In this document: positions 1,800 to 5,256 of the stretch, one piece after another
How the letters are laid out: every line of letters begins with the position of its first letter
Numbering within the stretch: position 1 is the stretch's first letter
UHGV virus genome: UHGV-0869939
Strand: one strand, 5' to 3'
Source of the DNA: a virus
Length of the DNA stretch: 25,864 bases
Notes under the pieces: model-generated
Told to the model about the DNA's origin: nothing
The model's database searches: none
Seen by the model: the letters and a program-made list of their open reading frames with translations, nothing else
Made by a program: the position numbers and the translations under genes

Positions 1800-2073
1800 C
1801 CTTCAACTTGCCGTCAAAGGTGAATACTTCGATGCCATGATTCGCGGAGAGAAAACGGAAGAGTATCGCCTGTGTAATGACTATTGGAATAAGCGCCTCG
1901 TTAACCGTAAGTATGACCGCCTGATTATCACAAAGGGATATCCGAAGCGCGACGATTCCAGCCGCAGAATTGATGTTCCGTATGACGGATATGAAATAAA
2001 GACAATCACACATCCCCACTTCGGCGATAAACCGGTAAAGGTGTTCGCGATAAAGGTGAATATTGATGGCTAA
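1792..2073 (+). CDS. ASCH/PUA-like domain protein
   Basis: 93 aa; GxKxxExR signature (GEKTEEYR) typical of ASCH domains; GGAGG RBS at 1777-1781; GTG start overlaps the upstream stop (GTGGCTAA). Confidence 0.45.
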   Translation: MANLQLAVKGEYFDAMIRGEKTEEYRLCNDYWNKRLVNRKYDRLIITKGYPKRDDSSRRIDVPYDGYEIKTITHPHFGDKPVKVFAIKVNIDG

Positions 2074-2404
2074 ATCAGCAGCAGAGCGCAAAGCCGCTCA
2101 GAGAGCCAGACAAGCTGAATCCGGTGTGCGTAAGCTGGAAATTGTGCTTGATGCTCAGGAAATTGAAATGCTGGAGCGTAACTGTGCCACACGTCGCCCC
2201 GGGCGTGCGCCTTACGAATTTGGTGAGTATATAGCGTTACTGATCCGCCAGGATGATGCGCGCGTGCACGGGCGTATAAAATCGATCAGCAGAAAACGTT
2301 GCGGTAAGTGCGGCGAGAGAGTTCCTGTGAATTCATGCCCGTGTAATGGTGACTCGCAATGCTGGGTGACTAAAGGCTGGCATGAAACGAAATTAATATT
2401 GTGA
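2066..2404 (+). CDS. Hypothetical protein with Cys-rich C-terminus (possible zinc binding)
   Basis: ATG at 2066 preceded by AGGTGA and overlapping the upstream stop (ATGGCTAA); C-terminal CGKCGERVPVNSCPCNGDSQCW. Family not recognised. Confidence 0.45.
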   Translation: MAKSAAERKAAQRARQAESGVRKLEIVLDAQEIEMLERNCATRRPGRAPYEFGEYIALLIRQDDARVHGRIKSISRKRCGKCGERVPVNSCPCNGDSQCWVTKGWHETKLIL

Positions 2405-2412
2405 CATGTCAC
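2401..2412. promoter_or_regulatory. Perfect 12-bp palindrome GTGACATGTCAC (copy 1 of 2)
   Basis: Exact palindrome overlapping the stop codon of the 2066..2404 gene; the same 15-mer TTGTGACATGTCACG recurs at 4667-4681. Confidence 0.4.
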
Positions 2413-2453
2413 GAGTGGGTTATGCATGATGAATTTGATGGGTTTTGAATACT

Positions 2454-2479
2454 GCCGCCAACTATGGCGGCTTTATTTT
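2454..2479 (+). terminator. Rho-independent terminator candidate
   Basis: Stem GCCGCCA/TGGCGGC with loop ACTA, followed by TTTATTTT. Confidence 0.6.
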
Positions 2480-2490
2480 GCATGGTACTA

Positions 2491-2505
2491 TTACCACAAC
2501 GGTAA
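2491..2505. promoter_or_regulatory. TTACC-N5-GGTAA palindromic site (copy 1 of 6)
   Basis: TTACCACAACGGTAA, about 20 bp upstream of the terminase small subunit ATG; preceded by TACTAT, followed by a TTACC half-site. Confidence 0.6.
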
Positions 2506-2522
2506 CTATTACCACGGTGGTT

Positions 2523-3122
2523 ATGATGCCTGCTGAACCTAAAACCTATAAACGCAAATCAACGCAATTTAAGCCACTAACAGCAATGCAGGAGGCTTAT
2601 TGCCAGTCATACATCAAAACGCCTGAAAACCAGACTCAGGCAGCGATTAACGCAGGATTCTCCCCAAATACAGCGGCAGTTAAAGCCAGTGTCATGATGC
2701 GCGATGAACGCATTCAAAAACGGATTGCCGAGTTGATGGAGGAGCGCAACAAACGAATGCGCGTCAGTGCTGATTACGTTCTCATGCGCCTGGTGGAGAT
2801 CGACCAGATGGACGTGATTGACATTCTCAACGACGATATGAGCATCAAGCCGGTCTCGGAATGGCCTAAGGTCTGGCGGCAGTACCTGACAGGTTTCGAA
2901 CTGGCCGACATGTTCGAAGGCCGTGGAGACGAGAAAGAGCTGGTTGGCATCCTCAAAAAAATTAAATGGCCTGACAAGGTGAAGAACCTCGAACTGATTG
3001 GTAAGCACGTCGACGTCAACGCATTCAAAGAACGCCTGGATGTTAATGTGAATGTGACAATTGCTGATCGCATAGCGGCAGCCAGGAAGAGACTGAAAGA
3101 ACGTCAGGATGGCAATCAGTGA
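2523..3122 (+). CDS. Terminase small subunit
   Basis: Sits directly upstream of, and overlaps, the large terminase; HTH-like AYCQSYIKTPENQTQAAINAGFS segment typical of small terminases. The track ORF begins at a TTG at 2445; tandem ATGs at 2523/2526 after GGTGG are more plausible. Confidence 0.65.
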   Translation: MMPAEPKTYKRKSTQFKPLTAMQEAYCQSYIKTPENQTQAAINAGFSPNTAAVKASVMMRDERIQKRIAELMEERNKRMRVSADYVLMRLVEIDQMDVIDILNDDMSIKPVSEWPKVWRQYLTGFELADMFEGRGDEKELVGILKKIKWPDKVKNLELIGKHVDVNAFKERLDVNVNVTIADRIAAARKRLKERQDGNQ

Positions 3123-4594
3123 CAGATACAGCGTTATCTCCTGAAGAGCAGTTAATCGAGGATATTGCAGGGTTCACTCACGATCCGCTTGGCTATGCCC
3201 TCTATGCGTTCCCATGGGGGGAAGAGGGGACTGAACTGGCACATGCCACCGGCCCACGTCAGTGGCAGGCTGATGCGTTCCGAGAGATACGTGATCACCT
3301 GCAGAATCCAGAGACGCGATATCAGCCGCTTATGCTGGCACGTGCTTCTGGTCACGGTATTGGTAAATCCGCATTCATCTCAATGCTGATCAACTGGGGC
3401 ATGTCCACTTGCGAGGATTGTAAGGTCGTGGTGACCGCCAACACCGACAACCAGCTACGAACGAAGACCTGGCCGGAAATTATCAAGTGGTCGAACCTTG
3501 CTATCACGAAAGACTGGTTTACCTGTACCGCTACTGCGATGTACAGCAATGATCCTGGGCACGACAAGCGGTGGCGAGCTGACGCAATCCCCTGGTCTGA
3601 GCACAACACTGAGGCATTCGCCGGACTACACAACGAGCGCAAACGCATCATCGTGGTATTCGATGAAGCGTCGAACATTGCGGATCTGGTGTGGGAAGTT
3701 GCTGAGGGTGCGCTTACGGACGAAGACACTGAGATTATCTGGGTGGCGTTCGGAAACCCTACACGTAATACCGGGCGTTTTCGCGAATGTTTCCGCAAAT
3801 ACAAACACCGCTGGAAAACTGCGCAGATTGACAGCCGGACGGTGGAAGGCACTAACAAACAGCAGTTGCAGAAATGGGTTGATGACTACGGGGAAGATAG
3901 CGACTTCGTTAAAATCCGTGTGCGCGGCATATTCCCGGATGCATCTGAATTGCAGTTTATCCCTACCGGACTTACTGACGAGGCAATGAAACGGGTGGTC
4001 ACCGCTGCGCAGGTTGCACATGCTCCGGTGATAATCGGCGTTGACCCGGCATACTCCGGTGTTGATGACGCGGTGATATATCTGCGGCAGGGGCTGCACA
4101 GTAAGGTGCTGTGGACCGGCAACAAGACCACTGACGATCTGATTATGGCGAAGCGTATCGCTGACTTTGAAGACCAGTACCAGGCTGACGCAGTGTTCAT
4201 CGACTTCGGTTACGGAACTGGTCTGAAGTCAATCGGTGATGGCTGGGGTCGTACATGGCAACTTGTTCCGTTCGGTGGCGCGTCTACTGACCCGCAGATG
4301 CTCAATAAGCGCGGGGAGATGTTCAACTCATGCAAGACATGGCTGAGGCTGGGCGGCATGCTTGATGACCAGGAAACAGCGGACGACCTGTCGGCGGCAG
4401 AGTACAAAGTTCGAGTGGACGGTAAAATCGTTATCGAACCGAAGGAAGATATCAAGGAGCGGCTTGGGCGTTCTCCTGGTAAAGGCGATGCGCTATTGCT
4501 GACGTTTGCTTTCCCTGTGTCGAAGCGTCTGCGAATTCCAGGTCAGCAGAACCAGCAAGGCAAGGCCATTACAGATTACGATCCCTATGCTTAA
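3119..4594 (+). CDS. Terminase large subunit
   Basis: 491 aa; Walker A-like SGHGIGKS, Walker B-like IIVVFDEASNI, C-terminal nuclease-like VIIGVDPAYSG...DDAVIY; GTG start overlaps the upstream stop. Confidence 0.9.
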   Translation: MTDTALSPEEQLIEDIAGFTHDPLGYALYAFPWGEEGTELAHATGPRQWQADAFREIRDHLQNPETRYQPLMLARASGHGIGKSAFISMLINWGMSTCEDCKVVVTANTDNQLRTKTWPEIIKWSNLAITKDWFTCTATAMYSNDPGHDKRWRADAIPWSEHNTEAFAGLHNERKRIIVVFDEASNIADLVWEVAEGALTDEDTEIIWVAFGNPTRNTGRFRECFRKYKHRWKTAQIDSRTVEGTNKQQLQKWVDDYGEDSDFVKIRVRGIFPDASELQFIPTGLTDEAMKRVVTAAQVAHAPVIIGVDPAYSGVDDAVIYLRQGLHSKVLWTGNKTTDDLIMAKRIADFEDQYQADAVFIDFGYGTGLKSIGDGWGRTWQLVPFGGASTDPQMLNKRGEMFNSCKTWLRLGGMLDDQETADDLSAAEYKVRVDGKIVIEPKEDIKERLGRSPGKGDALLLTFAFPVSKRLRIPGQQNQQGKAITDYDPYA

Positions 4595-4620
4595 TCCGCT
4601 GGTGGGGATAATGTCGTTGA

Positions 4621-4638
4621 TATCCTCTGGTGAGGATA
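4621..4638. promoter_or_regulatory. Palindrome TATCCTC-N5-GAGGATA
   Basis: Inverted repeat in the intergenic region after the terminase large subunit gene; an extra GGATA lies at 4606-4610. Confidence 0.25.
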
Positions 4639-4644
4639 AAACAA

Positions 4645-4670
4645 AGCCAGCTCATAGGCTGGCTGTTTGT
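4645..4670 (+). terminator. Rho-independent terminator candidate after terminase
   Basis: Stem AGCCAGC/GCTGGCT with loop TCATAG, followed by GTTTGT. Confidence 0.5.
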
Positions 4671-4680
4671 GACATGTCAC
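4669..4680. promoter_or_regulatory. Perfect 12-bp palindrome GTGACATGTCAC (copy 2 of 2)
   Basis: Identical to 2401-2412 including flanks (TTGTGACATGTCACG); lies 4 bp beyond the stop of the minus-strand 4685..4981 gene. Confidence 0.4.
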
Positions 4681-4684
4681 GGTG

Positions 4685-4981
4685 TTATTGAATTACAATC
4701 CAGTCATCAGATAGCAGATCGGTTTGAGATGCCAGCCACGGTACAAAGCAACCGTCAGCAGTTTTCATCCCAATCCACGGTAGAAGTTTAACGCCAGGTA
4801 CAAATGTATACTCGTCACCGCATGTAACGTCAAATCGCCACTCGTTCGGAGTGGCCGATTGCGGTGGCTTAACCAGTTGCAGATACATGCCTTTGCCATT
4901 CCATCCGGCACGTGCAATGCGCTTACCATCTTTGAGTGATGACAAAGCAGTGGAGAAAGATACTGTTGATGTTTCGCTCAT
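4685..4981 (-). CDS. DUF2829-like small protein (family of Thoeris anti-defence Tad2); candidate anti-defence moron gene
   Basis: 98 aa; ALSSLKDGKRIARAGWNGKGMYLQL near the N-terminus and PWLASQTDLLSDDWIVIQ at the C-terminus match my recollection of the DUF2829 signature; AAGGTGAG RBS; opposite orientation to the late operon. Confidence 0.55.
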   Translation of the reverse strand: MSETSTVSFSTALSSLKDGKRIARAGWNGKGMYLQLVKPPQSATPNEWRFDVTCGDEYTFVPGVKLLPWIGMKTADGCFVPWLASQTDLLSDDWIVIQ

Positions 4982-4990
4982 AATCTCACC

Positions 4991-5016
4991 TTAAAAAAAT
5001 GCCCGGCGAACCGGGC
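4991..5016 (-). terminator. Intrinsic-terminator-like hairpin plus U-run immediately upstream of the DUF2829-like gene RBS (minus strand)
   Basis: Minus strand reads GCCCGG-TTCG-CCGGGC then ATTTTTTT, then AAGGTGAG and ATG; could be a leader attenuator rather than a simple terminator. Confidence 0.45.
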
Positions 5017-5094
5017 GAACTGGAAGCAATGAGTTATGCCTTCCGTGGCTGTACTGGTTTACAGCATGAAGTCATCGCAATGGCGTCCTGCTGT

Positions 5095-5136
5095 AAAAAG
5101 GGCGGTGATAGTCCTTCAAGGGAAACCATCACCGCC
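5095..5136 (-). terminator. Terminator candidate downstream of tRNA-Arg (minus strand)
   Basis: Minus strand: 9-bp stem GGCGGTGAT/ATCACCGCC followed by CTTTTT, about 44 nt beyond the tRNA 3' end. Confidence 0.4.
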
Positions 5137-5179
5137 AAGCACCTGGAACTTCTGGCATCACGGTCCTTAGGCGTGATTC

Positions 5180-5256
5180 TGGCGTGGCATGCAGGATTCG
5201 AACCTGCGACCAACCGCTTAGAAGGCGGTTGCTCTGTCCAACTGAGCTAATGCCAC
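5180..5256 (-). tRNA. tRNA-Arg (anticodon UCU)
   Basis: 77 nt on the minus strand; perfect 7-bp acceptor stem GTGGCAT/ATGCCAC, D-arm GCTC/GAGC, anticodon stem ACCGC/GCGGT with loop CTTCTAA (anticodon TCT), T-arm GCAGG-TTCGAAT-CCTGC, discriminator G and encoded CCA. Confidence 0.9.

What the first reader, a model, noticed from the sequence alone, without database searches (positions are those of the whole stretch)
2399..4681. Identical 15-bp palindromic element TTGTGACATGTCACG on both sides of the terminase genes
A perfect 12-bp palindrome GTGACATGTCAC with identical flanks occurs at 2399-2413 (overlapping the stop of the gene before the terminase small subunit) and 4667-4681 (after the terminase terminator). 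Possible explanations are operator sites, module-boundary or recombination sequences for mosaic exchange of the terminase cassette, or packaging-related sites.
Basis: seen in the sequence. Interest (0 to 1): 0.4.

Follow-up and report, generated by a model that had tools for sequence, protein, structure and literature searches.

The report
Conserved palindrome tied to phage regulator
The two identical 15-mers are real, conserved copies of a 12-bp palindrome (GTGAC-NN-GTCAC) that travels through many unrelated temperate phages with one small, uncharacterised zinc-finger protein gene, so it is most likely that protein's DNA binding site and not a feature of the terminase genes.

Summary
TTGTGACATGTCACG occurs exactly twice (2399-2413, 4667-4681), which is far beyond chance. 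The window is an epsilon15/phiV10-like (Uetakevirus) prophage. The 12-bp core GTGACATGTCAC is invariant at up to three syntenic sites across the genus, while the flanks diverge. The sites are the stop codon of the gp49-like gene, just after the terL terminator, and the end of the structural operon (this third site is lost in the window).

The decisive result is an association with a gene. GTGAC-N2-GTCAC follows the gp49/N15-gp46 protein family (phrog_536) into unrelated phages: myovirus ZF40, N15-like telomere phages, P2-like Yersinia prophages, Vibrio phages and Pantoea prophages. It usually overlaps that gene's own stop codon, and one to three further copies lie elsewhere in the genome. Two phages with a related terminase but no gp49 gene have no copy.

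The best reading is that the palindrome is the operator of this small zinc-finger protein, whose C-terminal half weakly resembles TraR. In this genus the sites sit between a stop codon and an intrinsic terminator, at operon and cargo boundaries. The terminase cassette is not exchanged at these sites, and a packaging role is not supported. Site B is, however, the fixed left edge of a hypervariable cargo slot, which holds a Tad2-like gene here. Binding and function are untested.

The parts
2399..2413 (.). Site A: 15-mer TTGTGACATGTCACG with core palindrome at 2401-2412. It contains the TGA stop of the gp49-family gene.
   Evidence: The site is conserved in 74 of 78 related IMG/VR loci perfectly and in 4 with one mismatch. 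It is also conserved in eps15, SPN1S, Tyrion, BUCT711 and Kp4865-1. The core majority fraction is 0.99 against 0.63 for the 24 nt downstream.
4667..4681 (.). Site B: second identical 15-mer with core at 4669-4680. It lies between the terL-proximal terminator hairpin and the stop of the minus-strand cargo gene.
   Evidence: When present, the site is always 74 nt after the terL stop. It is present in about 62 of 77 related loci and invariant in eps15, phiV10, SPN1S, Tyrion and Kp4865-1.
2066..2404 (+). The gp49-family gene (112 aa; eps15 gp49 / phiV10 p55 / N15 gp46 family, phrog_536). It is the proposed trans-acting partner of the palindrome.
   Evidence: PHROG hit with E 2e-54, and no Pfam, NCBIfam or PDB sequence hit. 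Cys79 and Cys82 are invariant and Cys99 nearly invariant. The AF2 model has pLDDT 92.9. hhalign to TraR gives probability 70.6% over residues 47-105.
2454..2479 (+). Intrinsic terminator (GCCGCCAACTATGGCGGC followed by TTTATTTT), 41 nt downstream of site A and upstream of terS.
   Evidence: A terminator is annotated at the equivalent place in eps15, at 39646-39672.
2490..2506 (.). ATTACCACAACGGTAAC. This is the homologue of the eps15 site annotated as a prophage repressor binding site (ATTACC-N5-GGTAAT). It is a separate operator family and not part of the palindrome system.
2526..4594 (+). terS (2526..3122, Terminase_2) and terL (3119..4594), the genes bracketed by the two copies.
   Evidence: The cassette is aligned in 97% of 80 related loci.
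4635..4664 (-). Terminator hairpin AGCCAGCCTATGAGCTGGCT followed by TTGTTTTATC, read on the minus strand. The hairpin is also formed in the + strand transcript after terL. On the minus strand the order is cargo stop, then palindrome, then terminator.
4685..4981 (-). Cargo gene, Tad2-like (Thoeris anti-defence 2 domain). It occupies the hypervariable slot whose left edge is site B.
   Evidence: Pfam PF11195 with E 3e-24. Only 3 of 80 related loci carry this gene, and at least 15 alternative slot lengths are seen.
21885..21925 (+). The place where relatives carry site C. Here only caGTGAtcaaac remains, in front of the conserved terminator AGGCCGCTTTCGCGGCCTTGTTTTT, so the third copy is lost.
   Evidence: compared.

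Best explanation
The two 15-mers are two copies (relatives usually have three) of a short operator-like palindrome with invariant half-sites GTGAC/GTCAC and a 2-bp spacer. This palindrome is the cis-acting partner of the small zinc-finger protein encoded by the gene that ends inside copy 1 (the eps15 gp49 / N15 gp46 family).

Shown: the motif is conserved, hugely enriched, specific for a 2-bp spacer, and genetically linked to this gene family in at least five unrelated phage backbones.

Inferred: the protein binds the motif as a symmetric dimer. Because its gene lies in the early (repressor-controlled) operon, it would occupy the sites during lytic growth.

More weakly inferred: in the epsilon15-like genus each site lies between a stop codon and an intrinsic terminator at the end of a transcription unit (early operon to terS; cargo gene and terL; structural operon and antirepressor region). 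The bound protein would therefore control what RNA polymerase does at operon and cargo boundaries, either blocking read-through or allowing it. The C-terminal half of the protein resembles the RNA-polymerase-binding protein TraR, which would fit action on polymerase.

The bracketing of the terminase genes is incidental. Site A belongs to the regulator gene, and site B belongs to the cargo/terminator junction.
For: Conservation: the 12-bp core is invariant at syntenic sites A, B and C in eps15, phiV10, SPN1S, Tyrion, BUCT711 and Kp4865-1, while the flanks diverge (core 0.99-1.00 against flanks 0.60-0.88).

Enrichment: 26 sites were found in 11 genomes that encode the family, against about 0.03 per genome in shuffles. 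Only spacer 2 is enriched.

Linkage to the gene: the motif overlaps or abuts the stop codon of the family gene in ZF40, N15 and a P2-like Yersinia phage. The same holds in 46 of 46 N15-like loci, 51 of 55 loci seeded with the P2-like Yersinia or the Vibrio homologue, a Pantoea prophage, and 23-24 of 34 species-dereplicated genome loci. In that last set, 33 of 34 have a site within 10 kb.

Spacer pattern: the central dinucleotide is lineage-specific (AT, TG, GC, AC, CT) and need not be self-complementary. This is the pattern of a dimeric DNA-binding protein.

Negative controls: two phages with related TerL but no family gene have zero sites.

Protein: it has a basic N-terminus, a helical hairpin, invariant CxxC plus a conserved Cys, and a confident AF2 model. 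Profile similarity to TraR is probability 70.6%, E 3.8e-5.

Terminator adjacency: 31 of 82 distinct sites have a terminator-like hairpin nearby, against 70 of 920 random positions (odds ratio 7.4, p 1e-12).
Against: No binding data exist and no paper mentions the sequence. The protein has no recognisable DNA-binding domain: Pfam, NCBIfam, PDB sequence search and Foldseek are all negative, and the ribbon-helix-helix idea rests only on an E 0.068 hit and a sequence pattern. If the protein really is TraR-like, such proteins bind RNA polymerase, not DNA.

Terminator adjacency holds only in Uetakevirus-type elements. In N15, ZF40, P2-like and Vibrio phages the sites lie inside genes, upstream of genes or at gene junctions, so the 'operon boundary' function is not family-wide.

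The site is dispensable in some relatives: site B is missing in about 15 of 77 loci, site C is missing in the window, and one-mismatch variants occur. One Aeromonas homologue has only a degenerate copy.

The exact 15-mer also occurs in about 28 apparently unrelated viral contigs. These include half-site arrays inside a DUF1376 replication gene.
Confidence: 0.55

Rival explanations
1. The palindromes are module-boundary 'linker' sequences. Short conserved sequences would let related phages recombine and swap adjacent cassettes.
For: Site B is the exact, fixed left edge of a slot with at least 15 different cargo contents in 80 loci. All cargo ORFs end TAA-CACC (or similar) directly against the palindrome and share the RBS region at the other end. 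A 70-aa ORF or an umuD-like gene is inserted right after site A in some relatives. Site C disappears in the window together with a replaced upstream gene. These phages encode RecE/RecT-type recombinases.
Against: The terminase cassette itself is not exchanged. Twelve base pairs is very short for homologous exchange, and the adjacent conserved terminator and RBS regions offer longer homology. A linker model does not explain invariant half-sites with a free spacer. It also does not explain the linkage to one protein family in unrelated phages, or the copies inside repA of N15 and inside ZF40 genes. Being a conserved functional anchor would produce the same boundary pattern as a by-product.
Confidence: 0.15
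2. The motif is bound by some other factor (another phage regulator such as the Cro-like or PerC-like protein, or a host protein). Its linkage to the gp49-family gene would then reflect co-inheritance only.
For: gp49 has no recognisable DNA-binding domain, and its only remote similarity is to an RNA-polymerase-binding protein. The exact 15-mer also occurs in contigs where no family gene was seen in the held stretch.
Against: The gene-site linkage persists across podo-, myo- and siphovirus, P2-like and lambdoid backbones that share no other regulator. The site is embedded in the gene's own stop codon in at least four lineages with different C-terminal residues. That is hard to explain by hitch-hiking.
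Confidence: 0.12
3. It acts in RNA, as a 3'-UTR element or terminator accessory (GUGACAUGUCAC upstream of the terminator hairpin) that affects termination, processing or stability.
For: The layout stop codon, palindrome, terminator is seen at A, B (minus strand) and C. Terminator-like hairpins are enriched near the sites.
Against: The element folds at only -2.7 kcal/mol and is no better than shuffles (z -1.25). It has no complementarity to the terminator stems. The half-sites never vary and show no compensatory changes, while the spacer varies freely and is often not self-complementary. Sites also occur inside ORFs on either strand and without terminators in N15, ZF40, P2-like and Vibrio phages.
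Confidence: 0.07
4. The motif is a matS-like site bound by host MatP, or a decoy for it, that ties the prophage into Ter-macrodomain organisation.
For: The half-sites are identical to those of matS, GTGAC[AG]N[TC]GTCAC.
Against: The spacer is 2 bp, not 3. Among 0-7 bp spacers only 2 is enriched, and a single 3-bp case was seen in eleven genomes. Prophages avoid true matS (PMC3603311). The gp49 family shows no homology to MatP (hhalign probability 0.1%). The motif also occurs in Vibrio and Pectobacterium phages and in plasmid prophages.
Confidence: 0.04
5. The motif is a packaging (pac) or terminase recognition signal flanking terS-terL.
For: The two copies bracket the terminase genes. One Vibrio phage site lies 30 nt upstream of terS.
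Against: The motif follows gp49 and not the terminase. It is present in cos phages (N15, P2-like), far from their terminase genes, and absent in ST-35 and phiSG1, which have related TerL. A third copy lies 17 kb away at the end of the structural operon. The phiV10 record starts at the site only because it was cut after the last gene's stop codon.
Confidence: 0.03

Closest known systems
MatP / matS of E. coli (13-bp GTGAC-RNY-GTCAC bound by a dimeric protein)
   Same: The half-sites GTGAC/GTCAC are identical. The site is a short dyad with a non-contacted centre, and a few dispersed copies occur per replicon.
   Different: The spacer is 2 bp, not 3. The partner protein is not a MatP homologue (hhalign probability 0.1%). 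The sites are phage-borne, while prophages avoid true matS.
Lambda Q / QBE-pR'-tR' late-gene switch
   Same: At site A the order is regulator gene, then its presumed site immediately downstream, then a terminator, then late (terminase) genes. The protein is small and carries a zinc motif. GTGACA resembles a -35 hexamer, with a weak -10 element 17-18 bp away.
   Different: There is no homology to Q families. The promoter evidence is weak. Sites B and C are not followed by promoters. ZF40 and N15 carry the family in addition to their own Q-like gene.
TraR / DksA family (F TraR, lambda Orf73, P2 Orf82): RNA-polymerase secondary-channel binders
   Same: The profile match covers a helix, a CxxCGxxxP zinc knuckle and a C-terminal helix (hhalign probability 70.6%, E 3.8e-5; the best PDB sequence hits are YbiI and TraR). 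These are small phage- or plasmid-encoded proteins.
   Different: The DxxDxA motif is absent; the equivalent stretch is basic (RRPGRA). An extra N-terminal segment of about 46 aa is present. The second Cys pair is not CxxC. Foldseek does not retrieve TraR. TraR proteins have no DNA site.
epsilon15-type prophage repressor operators (ATTACC-N5-GGTAAT)
   Same: Both are dispersed short palindromes in the same genomes. One lies between site A and terS (window 2490-2506).
   Different: The sequence and the positions are different: these operators lie upstream of operons, not at their ends.
Gene-adjacent cognate sites such as parB-parS or sopB-sopC
   Same: One copy of the site lies directly next to the gene for the (presumed) binding protein, and a few further copies lie elsewhere on the replicon.
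   Different: No ParA/ParB homology was found. Most carriers are integrating prophages. The site is embedded in the stop codon rather than forming a repeat array.

Membership tests
matS / MatP system | 13-bp site GTGAC[AG]N[TC]GTCAC | tested here: not met
   The sites are 12 bp with a 2-bp spacer. A 3-bp spacer was seen once in 11 genomes.
matS / MatP system | Bound by MatP or a MatP homologue | tested here: not met
   The gp49 family compared with MatP (sequence verified against 4D8J) gives hhalign probability 0.1%. Binding of host MatP to the 12-mer is not testable here.
TraR/DksA C4 zinc-finger family | Significant sequence or profile similarity to family members | tested here: inconclusive
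   hhalign to TraR gives probability 70.6%, E 3.8e-5. PDB profile hits to YbiI and TraR have E 0.02-0.04. There is no Pfam zf-dskA_traR hit, no match to DksA, and Foldseek does not find TraR.
TraR/DksA C4 zinc-finger family | DxxDxA motif at the tip of the N-terminal helix, critical for function (PMC9239242) | tested here: not met
   The aligned stretch is basic (R43 R44 P45 G46 R47 A48) and is preceded by about 46 further residues.
TraR/DksA C4 zinc-finger family | C4 zinc motif CxxC-N17-CxxC | tested here: inconclusive
   The sequence has C79-x2-C82-x16-C99, with Thr at the fourth position. C91 is invariant in the 10-sequence set but not in the 64-sequence set.
TraR/DksA C4 zinc-finger family | Binds the RNA polymerase secondary channel | not testable with these tools
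   This needs biochemistry or cryo-EM.
Q-type late antitermination module | Homology to a Q family | tested here: not met
   No Pfam hit. ZF40 and N15 have separate Q-like genes.
Q-type late antitermination module | Binding element within a promoter that is followed by a terminator and the late genes | tested here: inconclusive
   A terminator and terS follow site A. The promoter-like match is only 9 of 12 (GTGACA-18-CATGAT), which is no more than shuffles give.
Ribbon-helix-helix DNA-binding proteins | Detectable RHH domain | tested here: inconclusive
   The only support is an E 0.068 hit to the LexA-regulated protein model and a beta-alpha-alpha-like sequence pattern. There is no Pfam or PDB hit. 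The best Foldseek hit has E 1.2.
pac / terminase recognition site | Co-occurrence with the terminase type | tested here: not met
   The motif is absent in ST-35 and phiSG1, which have related TerL. It is present in cos phages away from the terminase genes.
Intrinsic terminator | G+C-rich hairpin followed by a T-tract | tested here: not met
   The palindrome alone folds at -2.7 kcal/mol, z -1.25. It lies next to true terminators but is not part of them.
epsilon15 repressor operator | ATTACC-N5-GGTAAT | tested here: not met
   The sequence is different. That operator is present separately at window 2490-2506.

The most novel reading that the evidence does not exclude
The gp49/gp46 family is a new class of phage factor that joins a sequence-specific DNA-recognition part to a TraR/DksA-like RNA-polymerase-binding module. 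Parked on GTGAC-N2-GTCAC sites at the ends of operons and cargo slots, starting with the site in its own stop codon, it would act on arriving polymerases. It would work as a site-specific terminator, antiterminator or insulator that separates early, late and cargo transcription in many temperate phages.
Probability: 0.15. Interest if true: 0.8.

Novelty: new variant of a known kind. Interest (0 to 1): 0.55.

Why it matters
If the pairing is right, it gives a testable function and a precise DNA target to a protein family found in epsilon15-like, N15-like, P2-like, ZF40-like and Vibrio temperate phages. That family has no Pfam domain and is annotated only as 'hypothetical' or, in phage annotation (PHROGs, RefSeq phage records), 'transcriptional regulator'. 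It would also define a fixed landmark next to a cargo slot that carries anti-defence genes (Tad2-like here), which is useful for mining such cargo. And it raises the possibility of a DNA-tethered TraR-like regulator of RNA polymerase. For genome annotation, it shows that the element is not a terminase or packaging signal.

Tried and rejected
- **Chance:** rejected by shuffles and spacer controls.
- **CRP, LacI-type or LexA operators:** rejected by inspection. The spacing and half-sites do not fit (this rests on my own knowledge of the consensus sequences).
- **Repressor operator of epsilon15:** this is a different motif.
- **pac site:** rejected.
- **MatP homology:** rejected.
- **RNA hairpin or antiterminator pairing:** rejected.
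- **Defence-system membership of gp49 or the neighbouring genes:** no PADLOC hits.
- **Domain fusions of the family as a functional clue:** none were informative. One 398-aa hit looks like a chimeric gene call with TerL fragments.
- **First AF2 model from a shallow alignment:** pLDDT 71, and Foldseek gave nothing. A deeper alignment gave pLDDT 92.9, but Foldseek against PDB and BFVD still gave no significant analogue.
- **Literature:** no paper contains GTGACATGTCAC. The epsilon15 and phiKO2 genome papers are not held. The 'gp46' detected in lysogens of telomere phage NAR688 turned out to be the cB repressor under a different numbering. The ZX5 paper deals with repressor, antirepressor and integrase only.
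Full report
**1. The observation**

The 15-mer TTGTGACATGTCACG occurs exactly at 2399-2413 and 4667-4681, and identity stops at the 15 bases. Its core GTGACATGTCAC is a perfect 12-bp palindrome.

Copy 1 contains the TGA stop (2402-2404) of a 112-aa gene (2066..2404). Copy 2 lies 3 nt after the stem of a hairpin (4645-4664), in its weak + strand T-tract downstream of terL. It lies 4 nt before the stop of a convergent minus-strand gene (4685..4981).

The generalised pattern GTGAC-N2-GTCAC occurs twice in the window, against 0.005 expected from dinucleotide shuffles. No other spacer length gives a hit.

**2. What the window is**

The region is 96-98% identical to phiV10-like Escherichia phages and to prophages in hundreds of E. 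coli genomes. It is about 80% identical to Salmonella phage epsilon15 (genus Uetakevirus).

The gene ending in copy 1 corresponds to phiV10 p55 and epsilon15 gp49, both annotated 'transcriptional regulator'. It belongs to phrog_536 and has no Pfam or NCBIfam family. The genes between the two copies are terS (Terminase_2) and terL. The minus-strand gene after copy 2 is Tad2-like, a Thoeris anti-defence domain.

**3. Conservation in the genus**

The perfect 12-mer is present at three syntenic places in epsilon15, SPN1S and Tyrion (Enterobacter). phiV10 also has three, one of them with a single mismatch. The Klebsiella phages BUCT711 and Kp4865-1 carry A and C, or A and B, plus extra sites. The three places are:

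- **Site A:** over the gp49 stop codon.
- **Site B:** next to the terminator after terL.
- **Site C:** at the end of the long structural operon, immediately before its terminator.

The core is 99-100% conserved, while the 24 nt on either side are 60-88% conserved.

In 78 related IMG/VR loci, site A is perfect in 74 and has one mismatch in 4. Site B is present in about 62 of 77. In the window, site C has been lost together with a replaced upstream gene, and only the terminator remains.

All three sites share one layout when read in the direction of the nearest gene: stop codon, then palindrome, then an intrinsic terminator 0-41 nt further on. Site B shows this layout on the minus strand.

**4. 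The decisive result: linkage to one gene family**

tblastn finds gp49 homologues in 154 phage records of very different types. The motif follows them:

| Phage or locus set | Motif at or next to the homologue's stop codon | Further copies |
|---|---|---|
| Pectobacterium myovirus ZF40 | GTGACATGTCAC, 2 nt after the stop | two more |
| N15 (gene 46) | GTGACTGGTCAC, over the stop | two more |
| P2-like Yersinia phage | GTGACGCGTCAC, over the stop | none |
| N15-like loci | 46 of 46 | the other two N15 sites are also conserved |
| Loci seeded with the P2-like Yersinia or Vibrio homologue | 51 of 55 | |
| Pantoea lambdoid prophage | GTGACTTGTCAC, over the stop | none within 10 kb |
| 34 species-dereplicated genome loci | 23-24 of 34 | 33 of 34 have a site within 10 kb |
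| Vibrio phage K303 | none at the stop | three sites, one 226 nt downstream of the gene |
| Aeromonas homologue | a two-mismatch copy over its stop | none |

Across eleven genomes that encode the family there are 26 sites, against about 0.03 per genome expected. The enrichment is confined to a 2-bp spacer.

Two phages with a related TerL (53% and 65% identity) but no family gene have no site.

The half-sites never vary. The central dinucleotide is lineage-specific and often not self-complementary. This is the signature of a dimeric DNA-binding protein rather than of an RNA structure. In agreement, the RNA hairpin is worth only -2.7 kcal/mol and is no better than shuffles.

**5. The protein**

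The family is small: 209 clusters at 50% identity among 1.84 billion representatives. Almost all members are stand-alone proteins of 100-135 aa, and every name the general sequence sources gave the listed homologues is 'hypothetical protein' or 'phage protein'; phage annotation (PHROGs, RefSeq phage records) calls members 'transcriptional regulator'.

Cys79 and Cys82 are invariant. Cys99, Pro87, Arg8, Arg13, Glu54 and Leu59 are nearly invariant.

With a 64-sequence alignment, AlphaFold gives a confident model (pLDDT 92.9). It has a basic helix at 5-19, a helical hairpin at 30-42 and 52-74, a zinc knuckle and a C-terminal helix. Foldseek finds no significant analogue in PDB or BFVD.

The profile's best PDB sequence hits are YbiI and F-plasmid TraR (E 0.02-0.04). 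hhalign to TraR gives probability 70.6%, E 3.8e-5, over residues 47-105. TraR-family proteins bind the RNA polymerase secondary channel through a DxxDxA helix tip, a C4 zinc domain and a C-terminal helix (PMC9239242). gp49 lacks DxxDxA, because the equivalent loop is basic, and it has about 46 extra N-terminal residues. It is therefore not a bona fide TraR, and the similarity is a lead only.

A ribbon-helix-helix reading of residues 22-65 rests on pattern alone. MatP homology is excluded.

**6. Boundaries and cargo**

In 80 related loci the terS-terL cassette is aligned in 97%, so it is not exchanged as a module. Alignment collapses from about 0.6-0.75 to 0.04 just after site B and resumes at about 4990.

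Between the terL stop and the next conserved gene there are at least 15 different lengths of content. Whenever the palindrome is present, it is at offset 74. The minus-strand cargo ORF ends 4 nt from it and shares its RBS region at the other end.

Some relatives carry a 70-aa ORF directly after site A, and the window keeps an 8-codon remnant of it. BUCT711 has an SOS-box-preceded umuD-like gene there.

The palindromes are therefore fixed landmarks at places where cargo turns over. I read this as a consequence of their being conserved functional anchors next to conserved terminators, not as their function. Twelve base pairs is little homology, and the linker idea does not explain the family-wide gene linkage.

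**7. Mechanism**

Shown: the motif and the gene family are a conserved pair.

Inferred (confidence about 0.55): the protein binds the motif as a dimer.

Further inferred for this genus (lower confidence): binding at stop-codon-to-terminator junctions modulates RNA polymerase passage at operon and cargo boundaries during lytic growth.

Terminator-like hairpins lie within 80 nt of 31 of 82 distinct sites, against 70 of 920 random positions (odds ratio 7.4, p 1e-12). This holds only for Uetakevirus-type elements and not for N15, ZF40, P2-like or Vibrio phages. In those phages the sites lie inside genes, at gene junctions, or 19-30 nt upstream of start codons. One N15 site lies about 25 nt upstream of a promoter-like TTGACG-18-TAGAGT before the antirepressor operon.

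At site A the order regulator gene, site, terminator, late genes mimics the lambda Q/pR'/tR' arrangement. However, the promoter match is weak, and ZF40 and N15 have their own Q-like genes.

**8. Reverse check**

Of the 119 new loci it returned:

- 61 contain the family gene or the Uetakevirus terL in the stretch held.
- About 30 more are Uetakeviruses by DNA similarity.
- About 28 are other contexts.

Some of these other contexts repeat the 'terminator, palindrome, minus-strand gene' layout. Others are arrays of GTGAC half-sites inside a DUF1376 (YdaU-like) replication gene of high-GC phages, which look like origin iterons. The sequence is therefore not exclusive to this system.

**9. Verdict**

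The finding is real and conserved. It is best explained as the operator of an uncharacterised phage zinc-finger protein. It is not terminase- or packaging-related, though it is coincident with a cargo-slot boundary. No paper in the searchable library mentions the sequence. The function is untested, and the TraR-like, polymerase-directed reading is the most novel possibility that the evidence does not exclude.

Noticed in passing
window 4685-4990 (minus strand): A hypervariable cargo slot lies between terL and the portal module. Here it holds a Tad2-like (Thoeris anti-defence 2, PF11195) gene, which only 3 of 80 related loci carry. At least 15 alternative contents share the same RBS region (ttttttaaggtgagattATG on the minus strand) and the same palindrome-plus-terminator 3' end.
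   Followed up: partly
window 2850-2950 (inside terS): A hypervariable patch in terS. Identity to 80 otherwise 95-99% identical relatives drops to 56-69% over about 100 nt. It could be a specificity-determining or recombination patch.
   Followed up: no
window 2422-2448; L009:6360-6572; L014 and eps15 next to site B: Some relatives carry a 70-aa ORF (MPKIRYDLEDM...DEFDGL*) directly after site A. The window has an 8-codon remnant (MHDEFDGF*). A homologous remnant (MKYEFDGF* / MKDEFDRF*) sits before site B on the minus strand in other phages, so the same small gene family appears to have occupied both palindrome-adjacent positions.
   Followed up: partly
window 2490-2517: ATTACCACAACGGTAAC followed by a partial direct repeat (CTATTACCAC) just upstream of terS. 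It corresponds to the epsilon15 site annotated as a repressor binding site, which implies that the prophage repressor acts directly at the terminase operon.
   Followed up: partly
window 5180-5256 (minus strand): A tRNA-Arg (anticodon TCT) gene lies between the cargo slot and the portal module, overlapping the 3' end of the conserved ORF 4999..5250 on the opposite strand.
   Followed up: no
window 21038-23773: The region after the structural operon differs from phiV10 and epsilon15. There is a 283-aa ORF without Pfam hits where site C should be, then minus-strand genes that include an AntA-type antirepressor (23117..23773) and a weak YafO-toxin-like ORF (22162..22674).
   Followed up: partly
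L265:2558-2615; L223:10812-10890; L208:3142-3182: In high-GC viral contigs the same 12-mer sits in arrays of GTGAC/GTCAC half-sites. L265 has GTGACCAGTCAC and GTGACATGTCAC in direct tandem. In L265 the array lies inside a gene with a DUF1376 (YdaU-like replication) domain and next to low-complexity sequence. The arrangement looks like origin iterons.
   Followed up: partly
L089 (N15) 28550, 33237, 39269: N15 and 46 N15-like elements keep three GTGAC-(TG/CA)-GTCAC sites. One lies over the gene 46 stop, one inside repA, and one about 25 nt upstream of a promoter-like TTGACG-18-TAGAGT in front of the antirepressor operon.
   Followed up: partly
L007 (BUCT711, reverse complement) just after site A; L338-L340 after the gp49-family stop: LexA-box-like sequences (TACTGT-N8-ACAGTA) directly follow the gp49-family gene in some relatives. 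In BUCT711 the box sits in a TTGACT-17-TATACT promoter in front of an umuD-like gene.
   Followed up: no
L324:10001-10375: A Salmonella epsilon15-like prophage encodes a 124-aa gp49 with an internal 12-residue tandem duplication (APYDMSEYIALL, twice) in the conserved helix. Its palindromes are intact.
   Followed up: no
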